Shown here piece after piece: positions 1 through 2,957 of a stretch of DNA of 33,401 bases. Source of the stretch: a virus. Taxonomy: Duplodnaviria; Heunggongvirae; Uroviricota; Caudoviricetes. Below the pieces are notes generated by a model, which was not told where the DNA came from, searched no databases, and was given only the letters and a program-made list of their open reading frames with translations. How positions within the stretch are numbered: the stretch's first letter is position 1; each line of letters begins with the position of its first letter. The translations under genes and the position numbers were made by a program. The DNA is taken from IMG/VR virus record IMGVR_UViG_2724679239_000006. One strand, 5' to 3'.

Positions 1-1002
1 TTACCCTCTATTGTCAAAAGGGTTCAATTCAACTGCAGCCTCTAAATGACCTGGAGCAAAATGCGCATAACGCATAGTCATTTTTATATCGCTATGCCCC
101 AGTATTTTTTGCAACACAAGAATATTTCCTCCCCGCATCATAAAATGACTGGCAAACGTGTGACGTAGCACATGAGTTAATTGCCCATCAGGAAGCTCGA
201 TCTTCGCTCTCTTAATTGCAGCGTCAAAAGCCTCATAACATGGTGAAAATAACGCTCCTCGTTTTTTAGGAAGCATAGCCTGCAATTGAGGTGAAATCGG
301 TACAGTGCGGTTCTTCTTTCCTTTAGTTTTAACAAATGTGATTCGACCGGGCAGCACTTGAGATTGCTTTAATCCTTCAGCTTCACTCCACCGAGCACCA
401 GTCGCAAGCCCAATACGGACAACAACCCCCAAATCTTTATTCCGTGACTCATCACACGCAATCAGAAGGCGTTCAATCTCATCTACATACAGAAACGCCA
501 ATTCCTTTTCTTCCTCACGAAACTTGCGAATGCCAGTCAGGGGGTTTTCACCAGACCACTCCCCAAGGCGCTTCAGTTCGGCAAAAACAGCATGTAGATA
601 TGACTGCTCGCGATTAACGGTTGCTTCACTAAGTTTTTTCTTCCCCTTGGGATTCCATTCTCCTGATAACCTCCTTTCCCGATAAGTAGCAAACATATTT
701 TTGTCAAACTGAGAAGCAAATGGATCTCCCAGCCTGGAACAAATAGACTCAAGTTTGACTTTGCGCTCTGCACCAGAGGACAAGGTTTTACCGTACATCT
801 CAAACCAACGAGCAACCAACTCAGAAAGACGAGGACCAGAACCATCTTGAAACTCGTCTCCAACTCTACTATTCATTAAACGGCGCTCATAAGAGAGCGC
901 CTCACTTTTTGTCGCAAACTGTTTACGAATACGTTTTCCCGATGCCCCGTAAGGATAACATTCGCAAAGCCATTTACCTGATGGAATCTTACGAACCGAC
1001 AT
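1..1002 (-). CDS. int: Phage tyrosine integrase (P2 Int-like)
   Basis: 333-aa ORF ending at window position 1; C-terminal catalytic region with HVLRHTFASH...LGHSDIKMTMRYAHF (R-H-R-Y type motifs); sits at the prophage end next to the repressor as in P2. Confidence 0.9.
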   Translation of the reverse strand: MSVRKIPSGKWLCECYPYGASGKRIRKQFATKSEALSYERRLMNSRVGDEFQDGSGPRLSELVARWFEMYGKTLSSGAERKVKLESICSRLGDPFASQFDKNMFATYRERRLSGEWNPKGKKKLSEATVNREQSYLHAVFAELKRLGEWSGENPLTGIRKFREEEKELAFLYVDEIERLLIACDESRNKDLGVVVRIGLATGARWSEAEGLKQSQVLPGRITFVKTKGKKNRTVPISPQLQAMLPKKRGALFSPCYEAFDAAIKRAKIELPDGQLTHVLRHTFASHFMMRGGNILVLQKILGHSDIKMTMRYAHFAPGHLEAAVELNPFDNRG

Positions 1003-1007
1003 TTTAG

Positions 1008-1355
1008 TTACTTATCACATAAATCAAATGCAGCCTTAGTGACATCTCCCAGATTCTTTTTTAACCCTGGGGCGGCATCATTATCCAGCCAAAATGGATT
1101 ATTGTTATCTAACGGTAACGCACCAAATGTTTTACCTTTTATTCGAGCCAAACCTGTAAGCGCATATAACTTATTATCGTCAAAATTCATCACATAAGGA
1201 TTACCATCTAGACACTGTAACTGAACCTCATCAGTATTAAATGGCCATACCCCATTGAAACTCTCACGTTCAATATTTTTAAAAGGCATTGCGACGGCAG
1301 AAAAAGAAAACATAGATAAAAAAGTAACTAATAGTTGAACATTTTTTACTTTCAT
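1008..1355 (-). CDS. Hypothetical secreted protein (N-terminal signal peptide), lysogeny-side accessory gene
   Basis: 115-aa ORF; N-terminus MKVKNVQLLVTFLSMFSFSAVA looks like a Sec signal peptide; lies between the repressor operon and int. Confidence 0.55.
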   Translation of the reverse strand: MKVKNVQLLVTFLSMFSFSAVAMPFKNIERESFNGVWPFNTDEVQLQCLDGNPYVMNFDDNKLYALTGLARIKGKTFGALPLDNNNPFWLDNDAAPGLKKNLGDVTKAAFDLCDK

Positions 1356-1384: not shown

Positions 1385-2035
1385 TTACAAATTAAAAAAC
1401 ATCCTAGAAATGGCACCACCTACCACCCCCCCTACGCAGATAAAGAATATTATTTCTTTTGGATAAAGTCGGATTAATTCTGAAGCACGAAGTCGGACTT
1501 CTGGTAAGGTCGAATTCTCTGTGTTGCTTGATACCGATTGTTGCTCTAACCACGACAATGCAGACTGCAACTGAGAACGAGTAAGATCGTTTAAACGTCC
1601 TGTACCGAAATTGATATGGCAATACCGCAGAAGTTTTTGTCGAAGTCCACAGTCTTCACTGTTACGTAGTAATAAACTTACAAGAGCCTTACAGGCATCA
1701 TGATCTTTACATCGCTCAAGCATTGCATGCAGAAAACTCTCCGCTGTTTTATATTGATTTACTGTCATATCATCAATACCAGCTACACCAATCTCCGCAT
1801 GTACTTTTTGCCAAATAATAAACGCTTCAGTATTGCTAGCTTCTGCAATCGCAGCAACCAAGCTATTTAGCTCCTTACGCTGAGCCTTAAGCAAAGGGCG
1901 ATCGTCATCATCATTATTCGAAGGGATTGCGATATTGACGGTATGAGAACCATCATATCGCCCTATCTGAATATTCTTTTCGTGAAAATCACGCCCAGCA
2001 ACGCGATTGTTTGAACCGTTTGAGTTGACGGCCAT
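1385..2035 (-). CDS. Hypothetical protein with C-terminal transmembrane anchor, lysogeny-side accessory gene
   Basis: 216-aa ORF with its own RBS (GGAGGTGAC before ATG); hydrophobic C-terminus IIFFICVGGVVGGAISRMFF; N-terminal motif NNRVAGRDF mirrors the C-terminus of the upstream repressor. Confidence 0.6.
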   Translation of the reverse strand: MAVNSNGSNNRVAGRDFHEKNIQIGRYDGSHTVNIAIPSNNDDDDRPLLKAQRKELNSLVAAIAEASNTEAFIIWQKVHAEIGVAGIDDMTVNQYKTAESFLHAMLERCKDHDACKALVSLLLRNSEDCGLRQKLLRYCHINFGTGRLNDLTRSQLQSALSWLEQQSVSSNTENSTLPEVRLRASELIRLYPKEIIFFICVGGVVGGAISRMFFNL

Positions 2036-2050
2036 GTCACCTCCCTACTA

Positions 2051-2455
2051 TCACCTACCCTTAGTTTCGTTATAGTCACGCCCAGCGATACGGTTATTAC
2101 CGCCAGAAATATTTAACTCACGTCCTGATGGCTGAGTTTCCTTTTCACTGGCCGCACCTTTTAAAGCCCCGATCACCGCGTTTTTCACATCTAACGAAGC
2201 TGCTCGAAAGCGAGTAATCAACTCCTGCTCATCATCGTTATAAGTTTCAGGTGAGTGAATTCCCAACACAACATACTGAACATCAAGGCCAAAACGAGAC
2301 AGCGCTGCCAAATACGCAGCATCAGGAAAGCTATCTCCTTTCTCATATCTAAGCTGAGTTAGCTTTTTGACTCCACCAATGTCGCTCATAGCAACTTGAC
2401 TAAGTCCCAATCTTTCCCTTTCCTCACGCAACCTCTGACCAATATCATTTTTCAT
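2051..2455 (-). CDS. Prophage immunity repressor, HTH XRE/Cro-C1 family (P2 C analogue)
   Basis: 134 aa; N-terminal helix-turn-helix QRLREERERLGLSQVAMSDIGGVKKLTQLRYEKG; divergent from the early operon and co-oriented with int as in P2. Confidence 0.75.
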   Translation of the reverse strand: MKNDIGQRLREERERLGLSQVAMSDIGGVKKLTQLRYEKGDSFPDAAYLAALSRFGLDVQYVVLGIHSPETYNDDEQELITRFRAASLDVKNAVIGALKGAASEKETQPSGRELNISGGNNRIAGRDYNETKGR

Positions 2456-2464
2456 ACAAAAACC

Positions 2465-2493
2465 TTGACAGGTATCTTTTTTGATACCAAAAT
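2465..2493 (+). promoter_or_regulatory. Candidate early promoter (-35 TTGACA at 2465..2470) with 18-bp operator palindrome GGTATC-N6-GATACC (2471..2488)
   Basis: Consensus -35 hexamer followed directly by a perfect inverted repeat in the divergent repressor/early-operon intergenic region; -10 element weak (CAAAAT) and uncertain. Confidence 0.35.
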
Positions 2494-2530: not shown

Positions 2531-2737
2531 ATGAAACAAGTTCTTCACGATACCAGATCACGCATTCCGCGTAACACCGCCACAGGTCCAAGACTGGCAC
2601 TTCGGCTGTCCCTCGAGGAGCGAGCCGTCATTGATGAAATGGCAGCTAAAGAACAACGCTCATCCTCTAACATGGCGCGCATGATCTTCCTTCGCGGCCT
2701 AGAGCTAACCCAGAAAGAACAAAACAAATCTTCCTGA
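2531..2737 (+). CDS. Ribbon-helix-helix DNA-binding protein, first gene of early operon (Cro/Cox-role candidate)
   Basis: 68 aa; beta-strand plus two helices pattern PRLALRLSLEERAVIDEMAAKEQRSSSNMARMIFLRGLE typical of Arc/CopG/ParD-type RHH proteins. Confidence 0.5.
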   Translation: MKQVLHDTRSRIPRNTATGPRLALRLSLEERAVIDEMAAKEQRSSSNMARMIFLRGLELTQKEQNKSS

Positions 2738-2753
2738 TCAGGAGGCTAATGGG

Positions 2754-2957
2754 ATGTCAGGTATAACCATCAATATCAATGTGAATGCCCCCTATGTATC
2801 CCTGCAGAAATATGCAGAGATAACAGGTATCCCTCTTAATACATGCAAAAAGATGTTGGCTGACGGTCGAATTATTATCCGACCCAAACGCGCCAAAATG
2901 GAAAAGCCTGAAGTAAACCTTGTGGCGATGTTAAAAGACGCTTTGGCTAACAGCTAA
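2754..2957 (+). CDS. Small HTH protein, excisionase/AlpA-Cox-like
   Basis: 67 aa; YVSLQKYAEITGIPLNTCKKMLADGRIIIRP resembles excisionase/AlpA-type HTH; RBS AGGAGG upstream. Confidence 0.45.
   Translation: MSGITININVNAPYVSLQKYAEITGIPLNTCKKMLADGRIIIRPKRAKMEKPEVNLVAMLKDALANS

What the first reader, a model, noticed from the sequence alone, without database searches (positions are those of the whole stretch)
1988..2102. Repressor C-terminus and downstream protein N-terminus share an NNR(I/V)AGRD(Y/F) motif, separated by three in-frame stops
The repressor ends ...ISGGNNRIAGRDYNETKGR and the next protein begins MAVNSNGSNNRVAGRDFHEKNIQIG. The underlying DNA is also similar (about 30 nt at 2073..2102 versus 1988..2017). 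The two ORFs are in the same frame but separated by TGA TAG TAG and a new RBS. This suggests a local duplication that gave a membrane protein a repressor-like tail, possibly a shared interaction or degradation tag, or a membrane-tethered repressor mimic modulating the lysis-lysogeny switch.
Basis: seen in the sequence. Interest (0 to 1): 0.45.

Follow-up and report, generated by a model that had tools for sequence, protein, structure and literature searches.

The report
Repressor tail copied on neighbouring membrane protein
A prophage repressor and the membrane-anchored protein encoded right after it carry the same ~17-residue peptide at their facing ends, and this "matching tag" co-varies across many unrelated prophages, which points to an undescribed way of physically coupling a lysogeny repressor to membrane proteins.

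Summary
The repressor (R, 2051..2455, minus strand) ends LNISGGNNRIAGRDYNE. The next protein (D, 1385..2035, minus strand) begins VNSNGSNNRVAGRDFHE. The local alignment scores 62, against 29±4.6 for shuffles (0 of 5000 reach it).

It is not a recent duplication. DNA similarity is marginal, and synonymous codons match at chance level (67 of 133 observed, 59.8 expected). The in-frame TGA-TAG-TAG arrangement is not conserved in other lineages.

R is an XRE-type HTH repressor sitting where P2-like phages keep their immunity repressor. D has a disordered N-terminus, a helical domain like the N-terminal domain of Flk, and a C-terminal membrane anchor.

- In 13 of 14 lineage pairs tested, the R tail and the N-terminus of a neighbouring protein share a lineage-specific motif. 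These come from P2-like and Mu-like prophages of Enterobacterales, Gilliamella, Pseudomonas-type hosts and Ralstonia.
- The match holds when the neighbour's body is an unrelated protein, when the genes are convergent, and when R cores are 95-98% identical.
- Two tail-less R homologues have no such partner.

Best reading: a co-evolving, like-with-like interaction tag that couples the repressor to membrane partners. The closest analogies are amyloid-signalling motif pairs and SinR/SinI. Binding and function were not tested. No description was found in the searched papers or family libraries.

The parts
2051..2455 (-). R: 134-aa XRE-type HTH repressor, in the position where P2-like phages keep their immunity repressor (divergent from the Arc/Cox early operon, same strand as int)
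   Evidence: ORF. PHROG 8/4/3 'transcriptional repressor', E 3e-14. Profile hit to the P22 C2 repressor N-terminal domain, E 7e-7. Pfam HTH_31/HTH_3 below gathering score.
2264..2455 (-). HTH DNA-binding domain of R (residues 1-64)
   Evidence: AF2 pLDDT 79-95, five helices. PDB sequence matches cover residues 5-66.
2150..2236 (-). Two-helix segment of R (residues 74-102, DDEQELITRFRAASLDVKNAVIGALKGAA), conserved across all tail classes; presumed dimerisation element (inferred)
   Evidence: AF2 helices 74-85 and 88-102. Alignment A4.
2066..2116 (-). R-tail motif LNISGGNNRIAGRDYNE (residues 114-130), inside a tail predicted disordered (residues 105-134, nt 2054..2143) that ends with basic residues
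   Evidence: dN/dS 0.12 within class A.
2036..2050 (-). 15-nt intergenic spacer: TAG TAG after the TGA stop, then a GGAGG Shine-Dalgarno sequence 4 nt before the D ATG; no terminator, so R and D are probably co-transcribed
1385..2035 (-). D: 216-aa tail-anchored protein of the phage-type Flk_N family (PHROG 5825, unknown function)
   Evidence: PHROG 5825 E 6e-101. Precomputed PF27202 Flk_N. hhalign to E. coli Flk, probability 94.5%.
1979..2029 (-). D N-terminal motif VNSNGSNNRVAGRDFHE (residues 3-19), the copy of the R-tail motif
   Evidence: Nearly invariant in 120 homologues. dN/dS 0.15. pLDDT below 50 in the monomer model.
1922..1978 (-). Second strand-like segment KNIQIGRYDGSHTVNIAIP (residues 20-38); MAFFT aligns it with the single N-terminal motif of distant D homologues, so it may be a second motif repeat
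   Evidence: Alignment A1. Conserved. Disordered in the monomer model.
1520..1897 (-). Helical Flk_N-like domain of D (residues 47-172)
   Evidence: AF2 pLDDT 78-92. hhalign D 37-168 against Flk 20-149, E 8e-8. NCBIfam Flk E 4e-16.
1391..1462 (-). C-terminal hydrophobic helix of D (residues 192-215): predicted membrane anchor with almost nothing beyond it, as in Flk
   Evidence: AF2 helix 192-215. Hydrophobic run in homologues. Flk topology from PMC13344023.
1008..1355 (-). Context: DUF2511 protein with a signal-peptide-like N-terminus, between D and int (accessory gene)
   Evidence: Pfam DUF2511 E 1.6e-5; PHROG 2950.
1..1002 (-). Context: tyrosine integrase at the end of the R-D-DUF2511-int gene string
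   Evidence: ORF. Annotated integrase in NC_049344.
2531..2957 (+). Context: divergent early genes, Arc-like repressor (2531..2737) and Cox-like excisionase/repressor (2754..2957)
   Evidence: PHROG 3431 and 575. Promoter-like site at 2465..2493.

Best explanation
The two peptides are the halves of a co-evolving, like-with-like interaction tag.

Shown here:
- R is the prophage's HTH repressor. It carries a flexible C-terminal tail that ends in a ~17-28-residue G/N/Q-rich strand-turn-strand motif followed by basic residues.
- D is expressed from the same lysogenic gene string. It carries the same motif, in the same polarity, at its extreme N-terminus. An acidic linker, a cytoplasmic Flk_N-like helical domain and a C-terminal membrane anchor follow.
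- Both motif segments are predicted disordered on their own.
- Both are under purifying selection.
- Both change together from lineage to lineage.

Inferred:
- The R tail and the D N-terminus bind each other directly by motif-to-motif (beta-strand) pairing.
- Part of the repressor pool is thereby tethered to the inner membrane, or D's state is gated by the repressor.
- The tag works as a portable connector. Near-identical repressors are wired to different membrane partners simply by matching the tag.
- The most likely output is modulation of the lysis-lysogeny switch by titrating or sequestering repressor. Second most likely is repressor-gated control of a membrane exclusion or abortive-infection effector.
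For: 1. The similarity is significant in the window and unique within it.

2. Family-wide conservation. 120 D homologues keep 'NS.G..NR.[AS]GRD[FY].E' at the N-terminus. Most close R homologues keep 'NVSG.GNR[IV]AGRD[YF][NH]E.KK' at the C-terminus.

3. Covariation.
- Ten lineage classes (A-J) were compared. Each R tail matches its own neighbour's N-terminus (0-18 of 2000 shuffles reach the observed score). The cognate assignment beats all of 200,000 permutations (an earlier test gave 36 of 100,000).
- Two Ralstonia phages add two more classes.

4. The match does not depend on the partner's body.
- Partners include Flk_N plus TM, coiled coil plus TM, multi-TM and small soluble proteins.
- One Ralstonia phage has two tagged membrane proteins in a row.

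5. Gilliamella prophages whose R cores are 95-98% identical carry different tails. Each sits next to a different partner whose N-terminus follows the tail.

6. The match does not depend on gene arrangement: the genes are convergent in Ralstonia phage YO077_2.

7. Selection acts on the peptide, not the DNA. Synonymous codon identity is at chance level. dN/dS is 0.12 for the R motif and 0.15 for the D motif, with dS about 1.2.

8. Tail-less R homologues (L129, L133) have no tagged neighbour. All 67 non-redundant D loci with upstream sequence have an upstream ORF whose C-terminal tail carries the lineage's motif.

9. AF2 monomer models leave R 105-132 and D 1-43 unstructured and do not dock either onto its own folded domain. 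This fits folding upon binding.

10. Different motif classes occur in one host genus: Pectobacterium has classes A and C. That argues against a host-encoded partner.
Against: - No physical interaction was tested or modelled. No complex prediction was available.
- Co-linear similarity is also what mimicry or competition for a common site would produce.
- One pair (L141) is not significant by the alignment test (1070 of 3000 shuffles reach its score). Within related classes, non-cognate scores can equal or exceed cognate ones.
- Class A motifs are rich in charged residues (R, D, E), which is not typical of strongly self-pairing strands.
- The tail-less controls number only two.
- The functional output (sequestration or effector gating) is pure inference.
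Confidence: 0.55

Rival explanations
1. Amyloid-like (prion-type) signalling. Clustering of repressor tails, for example on operator arrays or on loss of DNA binding, nucleates a cross-beta fold. That fold templates the identical motif on D and on other tagged membrane proteins, switching them into an oligomeric active state for exclusion, abortive infection or lysis control. This would parallel NLR/HET-s and Bell/BASS gene pairs. It is a special case of motif-to-motif pairing.
For: - The genomic signature is the one used to discover amyloid signalling motifs: neighbouring genes whose termini share at least 15 aa at a score of at least 40 (criteria read). This is met by 9 of the 14 pairs tested.
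- The motifs are G/N/Q-rich, lie next to flexible linkers and are disordered as monomers.
- One 'sensor' is wired to variable, mostly membrane-targeted 'effectors'.
- Same-polarity similarity is what in-register parallel stacking requires.
- The Ralstonia pair shares NVQIG and the window's D has NIQIG, resembling the RHIM/BASS3 phi-Q-phi-G core.
Against: - There is no NLR/STAND partner and no Bell/HeLo domain.
- The motif sits at the effector's N-terminus rather than its C-terminus.
- Class A is highly charged.
- Known BASS pairs were reported in multicellular bacteria and are rare in Proteobacteria.
- A repressor that aggregates irreversibly seems risky for stable lysogeny.
- Fibril formation was not tested.
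Confidence: 0.15
2. SinI-like mimicry. The R tail normally docks onto R itself (in cis, or between R dimers for cooperative repression). D's N-terminal copy competes for that site, so D acts as a membrane-tethered anti-repressor or repressor buffer.
For: - The similarity is co-linear, as mimicry needs.
- It matches the SinR/SinI precedent of an adjacent antagonist sharing the repressor's C-terminal oligomerisation segment (established knowledge).
- D residues 49-110 give weak PHROG hits to anti-repressor Ant families (E 0.004-0.045).
Against: - R cores that are 95-98% identical carry clearly different tails. Across classes the R core is conserved while the motifs diverge. That is hard to reconcile with a specific docking site on the core.
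- AF2 does not dock the tail on the core.
- Tail-less homologues exist as apparent repressors.
Confidence: 0.18
3. Both motifs are recognised by a third factor, such as a protease, adaptor, chaperone or other host protein. R and D would then be degraded or handled together (a shared degron or tag).
For: - Short, disordered terminal peptides are typical recognition tags.
- Mu-type repressors are known to be controlled through their C-termini by ClpXP (established knowledge, not tested here).
Against: - Motif classes differ sharply within one host genus and are shared across distant hosts only with the phage module.
- No third motif-bearing or conserved partner gene exists in the window or the loci.
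- The same-polarity motif sits near a C-terminus in one protein and at the N-terminus in the other, which is unusual for terminal degrons.
Confidence: 0.08
4. A neutral remnant of a local duplication or gene conversion, or a chance or compositional similarity, with no function.
For: - The genes are adjacent and in the same frame in this window.
- DNA similarity is marginal (25 of 2000 shuffles reach it).
Against: - Synonymous codons match at chance level.
- There is strong purifying selection.
- Covariation is seen in 13 of 14 lineage pairs tested.
- The pair persists between convergent genes.
- 0 of 5000 shuffles reach the peptide score.
Confidence: 0.02

Closest known systems
Amyloid signalling motif gene pairs (fungal NWD2/HET-S; bacterial NLR/Bell BASS1-10; Dyrka et al. 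2020, bioRxiv 10.1101/2020.01.06.895854)
   Same: - Neighbouring genes whose facing protein termini share a short (15-30 aa), lineage-specific, G/N/Q-rich motif next to flexible linkers.
- One partner is usually membrane-targeted.
- The effectors are variable.
- The window pair meets the operational discovery criterion (at least 15 aa, score at least 40).
   Different: - The 'sensor' is a phage XRE-HTH repressor, not a STAND/NLR NTPase.
- The partners are tail-anchored Flk_N or other TM proteins, not Bell/HeLo.
- The motif is N-terminal on the effector.
- The hosts are unicellular Proteobacteria.
- Amyloid formation is untested.
SinR/SinI of Bacillus subtilis (repressor plus adjacent antagonist sharing its C-terminal oligomerisation segment)
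   Same: An XRE-type HTH repressor whose C-terminal segment is copied in the protein of an adjacent gene, which implies heteromeric pairing.
   Different: - The Sin segment is a helical hook; here the segment is a disordered, strand-like motif.
- No Sin-family Pfam hit.
- The partner is membrane-anchored and carries a large extra domain.
Flk (Fluke/RflH), the tail-anchored regulator of the flagellar type III secretion-specificity switch (PMC13344023)
   Same: D shares the Flk N-terminal helical domain (hhalign probability 94.5%; PF27202) and the architecture of a cytoplasmic domain plus C-terminal membrane anchor.
   Different: - D scores 59 bits against a cutoff of 353 for the Flk equivalog.
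- D is 216 aa rather than 331 aa, and is prophage-borne.
- D has the N-terminal motif, which chromosomal Flk proteins lack.
Lysogeny-operon accessory proteins: lambda cI-rexA-rexB (RexA binds CI; bioRxiv 10.1101/2021.04.19.439022), and Sie proteins encoded between repressor and integrase genes in lactococcal phages
   Same: A membrane-associated protein expressed with the repressor in the lysogen, from the repressor-integrase interval, with possible feedback on the switch or on exclusion.
   Different: - No sequence or fold relationship.
- None of these share a peptide motif with their repressor.
Effector-associated (Death-like) adaptor domain pairs of NTP-dependent conflict systems (Kaur et al. 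2020, cited from memory)
   Same: The logic of a homotypic adaptor present once on the sensor and once on each neighbouring effector.
   Different: Those are folded ~90-aa helical domains on NTPases. Here the connector is a ~20-aa linear motif on a repressor.

Membership tests
Amyloid signalling motif (ASM/BASS-type) gene pair | Neighbouring genes whose protein termini share a locally conserved segment of at least 15 aa with a score of at least 40 (criterion of Dyrka et al.) | tested here: met
   Window pair: 17 aa, score 62. 9 of the 14 pairs tested reach 40. Criterion read.
Amyloid signalling motif (ASM/BASS-type) gene pair | The sensor partner is an NLR/STAND NTPase (NACHT or NB-ARC plus repeats) | tested here: not met
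   R is a 134-aa XRE HTH protein with no NTPase domain.
Amyloid signalling motif (ASM/BASS-type) gene pair | The effector partner is a Bell/HeLo-type membrane-disrupting domain with the motif at its C-terminus | tested here: not met
   D is an Flk_N-like domain plus tail anchor, with the motif at its N-terminus. Other lineages use other TM proteins.
Amyloid signalling motif (ASM/BASS-type) gene pair | The motif forms cross-beta fibrils and templates its partner (prion-like seeding) | not testable with these tools
   The only indirect evidence is disorder in the monomers, G/N/Q-rich composition, and a phi-Q-phi-G core in some pairs.
SinR/SinI-type repressor-antagonist pair | An adjacent-gene product shares the repressor's C-terminal segment | tested here: met
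SinR/SinI-type repressor-antagonist pair | The shared segment is the helical Sin multimerisation domain | tested here: not met
   No Sin-family Pfam hit. The shared segment is non-helical with low pLDDT in the AF2 models.
SinR/SinI-type repressor-antagonist pair | The antagonist blocks DNA binding by forming a heterodimer | not testable with these tools
   Needs EMSA or two-hybrid experiments.
Flk (flagella biosynthesis regulator, NCBIfam NF007987) | Whole-protein score above the curated cutoff (353 bits) | tested here: not met
   59.2 bits, E 4e-16, covering only D 36-169.
Flk (flagella biosynthesis regulator, NCBIfam NF007987) | Flk N-terminal domain (PF27202) plus a C-terminal membrane anchor | tested here: met
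   Precomputed PF27202 in homologues. hhalign probability 94.5%. AF2 C-terminal helix 192-215.
P2-type immunity repressor (by position) / XRE HTH family | An HTH repressor gene divergent from the cox-type early operon and co-oriented with int | tested here: met
   Gene order int - DUF2511 - D - R, then divergent Arc - Cox. HTH supported by PHROG 8 (E 3e-14) and P22 C2 (E 7e-7). The Pfam HTH scores are below the gathering cutoffs.
P2-type immunity repressor (by position) / XRE HTH family | Represses the early promoter and confers immunity | not testable with these tools
   Inferred from position and family only.
Known anti-phage defence systems (PADLOC-DB v2) | A match of D to any defence-system model | tested here: not met
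   No hit for D. R gives only weak HTH-level hits.

The most novel reading that the evidence does not exclude
Temperate phages of Proteobacteria use their immunity repressor as the sensor of an amyloid-like, prion-type signalling relay. The repressor's C-terminal motif templates the identical N-terminal motif on tail-anchored or other membrane proteins. These then execute superinfection exclusion, abortive infection or switch control. This would extend NLR-style amyloid signalling to unicellular bacteria, to phages and to a transcription factor.
Probability: 0.15. Interest if true: 0.92.

Novelty: new variant of a known kind. Interest (0 to 1): 0.72.

Why it matters
- **Induction of these prophages.** They lack a LexA-like self-cleaving repressor domain, so how they sense induction signals is open. 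A portable peptide tag that wires the repressor to membrane proteins would be a new regulatory layer of the lysis-lysogeny switch.
- **Prevalence.** The module sits in about 10% of complete E. coli genomes (520 of 5426), including O157:H7. It also occurs in Klebsiella, Salmonella, Yersinia, Pectobacterium, Gilliamella, Pseudomonas-type and Ralstonia prophages. It is annotated only as 'hypothetical protein', and in the reference phage record D is not annotated at all.
- **Testability.** The lineage-specific tags are a ready-made specificity code that motif swaps can test directly.
- **Wider significance.** If the pairing proves to be amyloid-like, it would be the first such signalling pair outside NLR systems and outside multicellular microbes.
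- **Flk.** The finding also gives a first functional handle on the phage branch of the Flk_N family.

Tried and rejected
**Ideas tested and rejected**
- Readthrough or fusion of R and D across the in-frame stops. The spacing and frame are not conserved: gaps run from -4 to 35 nt, and the genes are convergent in one phage.
- Recent duplication or gene conversion. Synonymous codon identity is 67/133 against 59.8 expected.
- A third motif-bearing protein, such as an anti-repressor, elsewhere in the prophage. None was found in six frames of the window or the loci.

**Searches that found nothing useful**
- Known defence system: no PADLOC hit.
- Solved-structure relatives of D by sequence: none at E ≤ 1.
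- Pfam on D: only spurious sub-threshold hits (ELYS, zf-P11). The local Pfam copy lacks PF27202.
- Literature searches for the motif strings, for Flk with prophage repressor, for tail-anchored with repressor, and for BcepMu or P88 immunity found nothing relevant.

**Searches that under-delivered**
- The third homologue search, run with the mixed alignment, returned only close Enterobacterales relatives and added no diversity.
- The genome-contig scan gave 10 loci and the metagenome scan gave 3, so diversity came mainly from viral contigs and from per-protein look-ups.

**Limits and weak points**
- No complex (multimer) prediction was possible. The monomer AF2 models leave both motifs unstructured.
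- Generic aggregation scales were considered but not used, because amyloid signalling motifs are known to escape them (abstract of PMC8086366).
- One pair (L141) fails the alignment significance test.
Full report
**What is in the window**

The window is a P2-like prophage of E. coli. It is 98.8% identical over the tested 1.8 kb to Escherichia phage 520873 (Peduoviridae, Xuanwuvirus).

On the minus strand the gene order is:
- int (1..1002)
- a DUF2511 gene (1008..1355)
- a 216-aa ORF, here called D (1385..2035)
- a 134-aa XRE-type HTH protein, here called R (2051..2455)

Arc-like and Cox-like early genes lie divergent to R. R therefore sits where P2-type phages keep their immunity repressor. 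It hits PHROG repressor families (E 3e-14), and as a profile it hits the P22 C2 DNA-binding domain (E 7e-7). Its repressor role is inferred from family and position, not shown.

**Checking the observation**

R residues 114-130 (LNISGGNNRIAGRDYNE, nt 2066..2116) align without gaps to D residues 3-19 (VNSNGSNNRVAGRDFHE, nt 1979..2029).
- The alignment has 10 identities and a BLOSUM62 score of 62.
- Shuffles give 29.0±4.6, and 0 of 5000 reach 62.
- Across all six frames of the 33.4-kb window, the D N-terminus is the only good non-self match to the R tail. The next best scores 32.
- TGA TAG TAG, the GGAGG ribosome-binding site and the shared frame are all present.

The DNA-level claim is weak.
- The best local nucleotide match is 22 nt and borderline (25 of 2000 codon shuffles reach it).
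- In-register identity is 59%.

**Not a recent duplication and not a readthrough device**

Across 14 lineage representatives, identical aligned residues use the same codon 67 times out of 133. Codon usage alone predicts 59.8.

Within the enterobacterial class, the motif codons have saturated synonymous divergence (dS about 1.2). Yet dN/dS is 0.12 on the R side and 0.15 on the D side. So the similarity is held at the peptide level by selection.

The gap between the two genes varies between lineages: -4, 1, 2, 3, 8, 9, 11, 13, 15, 18, 19 and 31-35 nt. In one Ralstonia phage the two genes are convergent. The in-frame triple stop in this window therefore has no special meaning.

**Anatomy of the two proteins**

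AlphaFold2 with family alignments gave these models.
- R: a confident HTH domain (1-64), two helices (74-85 and 88-102), and an unstructured tail (105-132, pLDDT below 50).
- D: an unstructured N-terminus (1-43), a confident helical domain (47-172, pLDDT about 78-92), a linker, and a C-terminal hydrophobic helix (192-215).

D's helical domain is homologous to the N-terminal domain of Flk.
- Precomputed Pfam assignment is PF27202 Flk_N.
- hhalign against E. coli Flk residues 20-149 gives probability 94.5% and E 8e-8.
- NCBIfam Flk gives E 4e-16, but 59 bits against a cutoff of 353.

Flk is a cytoplasm-facing, C-terminally anchored regulator of the flagellar secretion switch (PMC13344023). D shares that architecture but is not an Flk orthologue.

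Chromosomal Flk proteins ('MQP.SGPG...', about 330 aa) lack the N-terminal motif. Most of the short, phage-type members of this small family carry one. The family has 139 representatives at 50% identity among 1.84 billion proteins.

No solved structure or known defence family matches D.

The R tail ends in basic residues: the mean net charge of the last 8 residues is +1.5. The D motif is followed by an acidic linker with mean charge -1.5. This is a modest but consistent regularity.

**The key result: lineage-specific covariation**

All 120 listed D homologues keep 'NS.G..NR.[AS]GRD[FY].E..[IV].I..[FY]DG.HT[IV]NI'. Most close R homologues end '[IV]NVSG.GNR[IV]AGRD[YF][NH]E.KK'.

More distant R homologues have different tails. 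In each case the protein encoded next door begins with the same variant.

| Lineage | R tail | Partner N-terminus |
|---|---|---|
| Brenneria/Pectobacterium, Mu-like prophages | QIFNGDISGQFAGNQIINNG | MRQEFNGTAQGQFSSRDIINIH |
| Gilliamella | NTIRGEGQIAGGNIYTT | LQDNTAEQIAGRDIYNIT |
| Pseudomonas-type | GVGQQFNGPVGTVTSGDVVN | M..QQFNG.V.QVAAGDIKNF |
| Metagenomic lineage (L104) | QTFHGAVGQSVAGNVTNKAGVTFNFG | SQDFHGDVGQAAAGDINNYGININL |

These prophages carry an rve transposase, a MuB-like ATPase and an SLT endolysin. The R-D module is therefore shared between P2-like and Mu/BcepMu-like prophages.

For ten lineage classes:
- every cognate pair is individually significant (0 to 18 of 2000 shuffles reach its score);
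- the cognate assignment beats all 200,000 random re-pairings;
- the mean cognate score is 47.3, against 26.6 for non-cognate pairs.

**The tag is independent of the partner's body**

Four R homologues with further tail variants are followed by proteins that are not Flk_N-like by sequence score or Pfam record. Each nevertheless starts with a copy of the R tail.

| Locus | Partner | R tail | Partner N-terminus |
|---|---|---|---|
| L134 | 205 aa, no TM | INVSAPHGNAAGRDM | VNVEAPEGQAAGRDV |
| L135 | 272 aa, coiled coil plus TM | QVFHGAVSGGVAARDIINN | QEFQGNVDGGVAGRDIVNQ |
| L136 | 116 aa, soluble | not listed | not listed |
| L137 | 169 aa, multi-TM | not listed | not listed |

Further cases point the same way.
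- In Ralstonia phage YO107_2, R (tail QVFHQAPTGDIFGRDLV) is followed by two tagged membrane proteins with unrelated bodies (KQEFSGPVGDVAGRDIINH and RQDFHGPVGQVAGRDIINI).
- In Ralstonia phage YO077_2, R and the Flk_N-type protein are convergent. They still share QVINGGSNNVQIGSV / QSITDGNGNVQIGKV (score 42; 1 of 5000 shuffles reaches it).
- In Gilliamella prophages with R cores 95-98% identical, one tail variant goes with an Flk_N-type partner. Another (NGKVVGQVSSQNIYN) goes with an unrelated two-TM protein that begins NNNVVGQVAANNIYN (score 54; 0 of 3000 shuffles reach it).
- A third Gilliamella pair (L141) looks similar by eye but is not significant by this test.

Conversely, two R homologues without a motif tail (L129 in an E. 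coli 186-like prophage, and L133) have no tagged neighbour.

A Salmonella salamae locus has three tandem HTH genes before D. Two of them have AGRD tails, and one of those has an unrelated HTH domain.

**Interpretation**

Shown by the data:
- a short, disordered, selected peptide is present in the same polarity on the repressor's C-terminus and on the N-terminus of neighbouring, mostly membrane-anchored proteins;
- the two copies change together;
- the tag behaves as a portable connector, independent of the partner's fold, of gene orientation and of the repressor's core.

Inferred: the two copies bind each other directly.

Three arguments favour motif-to-motif pairing over the alternatives.
1. 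The only components common to all of these modules are R and the tagged partner.
2. Different motif classes coexist in one host genus, for example Pectobacterium classes A and C. That argues against a host receptor or protease.
3. The R core stays nearly constant while tails diverge, and AF2 does not dock the tail on the core. Both argue against a specific docking site on R itself.

Same-polarity similarity is what in-register parallel strand stacking, or mimicry, would require. Ordinary complementary interfaces do not require it.

The likely consequence is that part of the repressor pool is tethered to the membrane or buffered by D, or that D's activity is gated by the repressor. I rank switch modulation first and repressor-gated exclusion or abortive infection second. 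Neither was tested.

**Comparison with known systems**

The genomic signature is the one used to discover amyloid signalling motifs: NLR/Bell BASS pairs and fungal HET-s-type pairs. The criterion is that neighbouring genes share at least 15 aa at their termini with a score of at least 40 (Dyrka et al.).
- The window pair (17 aa, score 62) meets it, as do 9 of the 14 pairs tested.
- Some pairs carry a RHIM/BASS3-like phi-Q-phi-G core: NVQIG in Ralstonia and NIQIG in this window's D.
- The defining partners (a STAND NTPase and a Bell/HeLo effector) are absent, the motif sits at the other end of the effector, and fibril formation is untested.

So this is an analogy, not membership.

SinR/SinI is the closest repressor precedent: an adjacent antagonist copies the repressor's C-terminal segment. 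The Sin helical domain is absent here.

Lambda rexAB and lactococcal Sie genes are positional and functional analogues only. Flk is the closest relative of D's folded domain.

I found no description of this motif pair. The motif strings occur in no relevant paper. D is PHROG 'unknown function' and 'hypothetical protein' in RefSeq. It is unannotated, and frameshifted into four pieces, in the reference phage record.

**Prevalence**

The R-D segment is present in 520 of 5426 complete E. coli genomes, including O157:H7. Among 50,697 GenBank phage records, D homologues occur only in phage 520873 and in three Ralstonia phages. This probably explains why the module has not been studied.

**Verdict**

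- Confidence that the tag mediates direct R-partner pairing is about 0.55.
- The amyloid-like version is about 0.15, and would be the most consequential reading.

Noticed in passing
window 1008..1355 (-): A 115-aa DUF2511 protein (PHROG 2950) with a signal-peptide-like N-terminus sits between D and int. It is probably a lysogen-expressed accessory (moron) gene. Gilliamella loci have small lipoprotein-like genes (MKK...GCD) at the equivalent position after the tagged partner.
   Followed up: partly
L127 (NC_049344.1 1-6829): In the reference record of phage 520873, neither D nor the DUF2511 gene is annotated. tblastn recovers D in four pieces, and the integrase is split into two CDS. That assembly appears to carry frameshifts in this region.
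   Followed up: partly
L131 767..2801: A Salmonella salamae P2-like prophage has three tandem HTH genes before the Flk_N-type gene. Two end in ...NRVAGRDYNEKK, and one of those has an unrelated HTH domain. The third has a degenerate tail. So several repressor-like proteins may share one tagged partner.
   Followed up: partly
window 1955..1972 (-), D residues 22-27; L138 R and D motifs: D contains NIQIGRY, and the Ralstonia YO077_2 pair shares NVQIG. Both resemble the (I/V)Q(I/V)G core of RHIM/BASS3 amyloid motifs. Most enterobacterial D proteins have IQID instead, so in this window it may be coincidence.
   Followed up: partly
R residues 127-134 and D residues 36-46 in the window; 67 related pairs: R tails end in a basic cluster (mean net charge +1.5 over the last 8 aa, up to +5). 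The D motif is followed by an acidic linker (mean -1.5, down to -4). This possible electrostatic complementarity is unexplained.
   Followed up: partly
[not shown]
   Followed up: no
L004 4001..7641 and L001/L002 equivalents: In the Mu/BcepMu-like prophages, R and the tagged partner lie directly upstream of the holin-SLT endolysin lysis cassette and in the same orientation. A link between the tagged membrane protein and lysis control was not examined.
   Followed up: no
L138 1952..2305 (-): In Ralstonia phage YO077_2, a 117-aa zinc-ribbon plus TM protein is encoded directly after R and overlaps the 3' end of the convergent D gene. A similar zinc-ribbon/TM protein follows the partner in L134 (1368..2054).
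   Followed up: no
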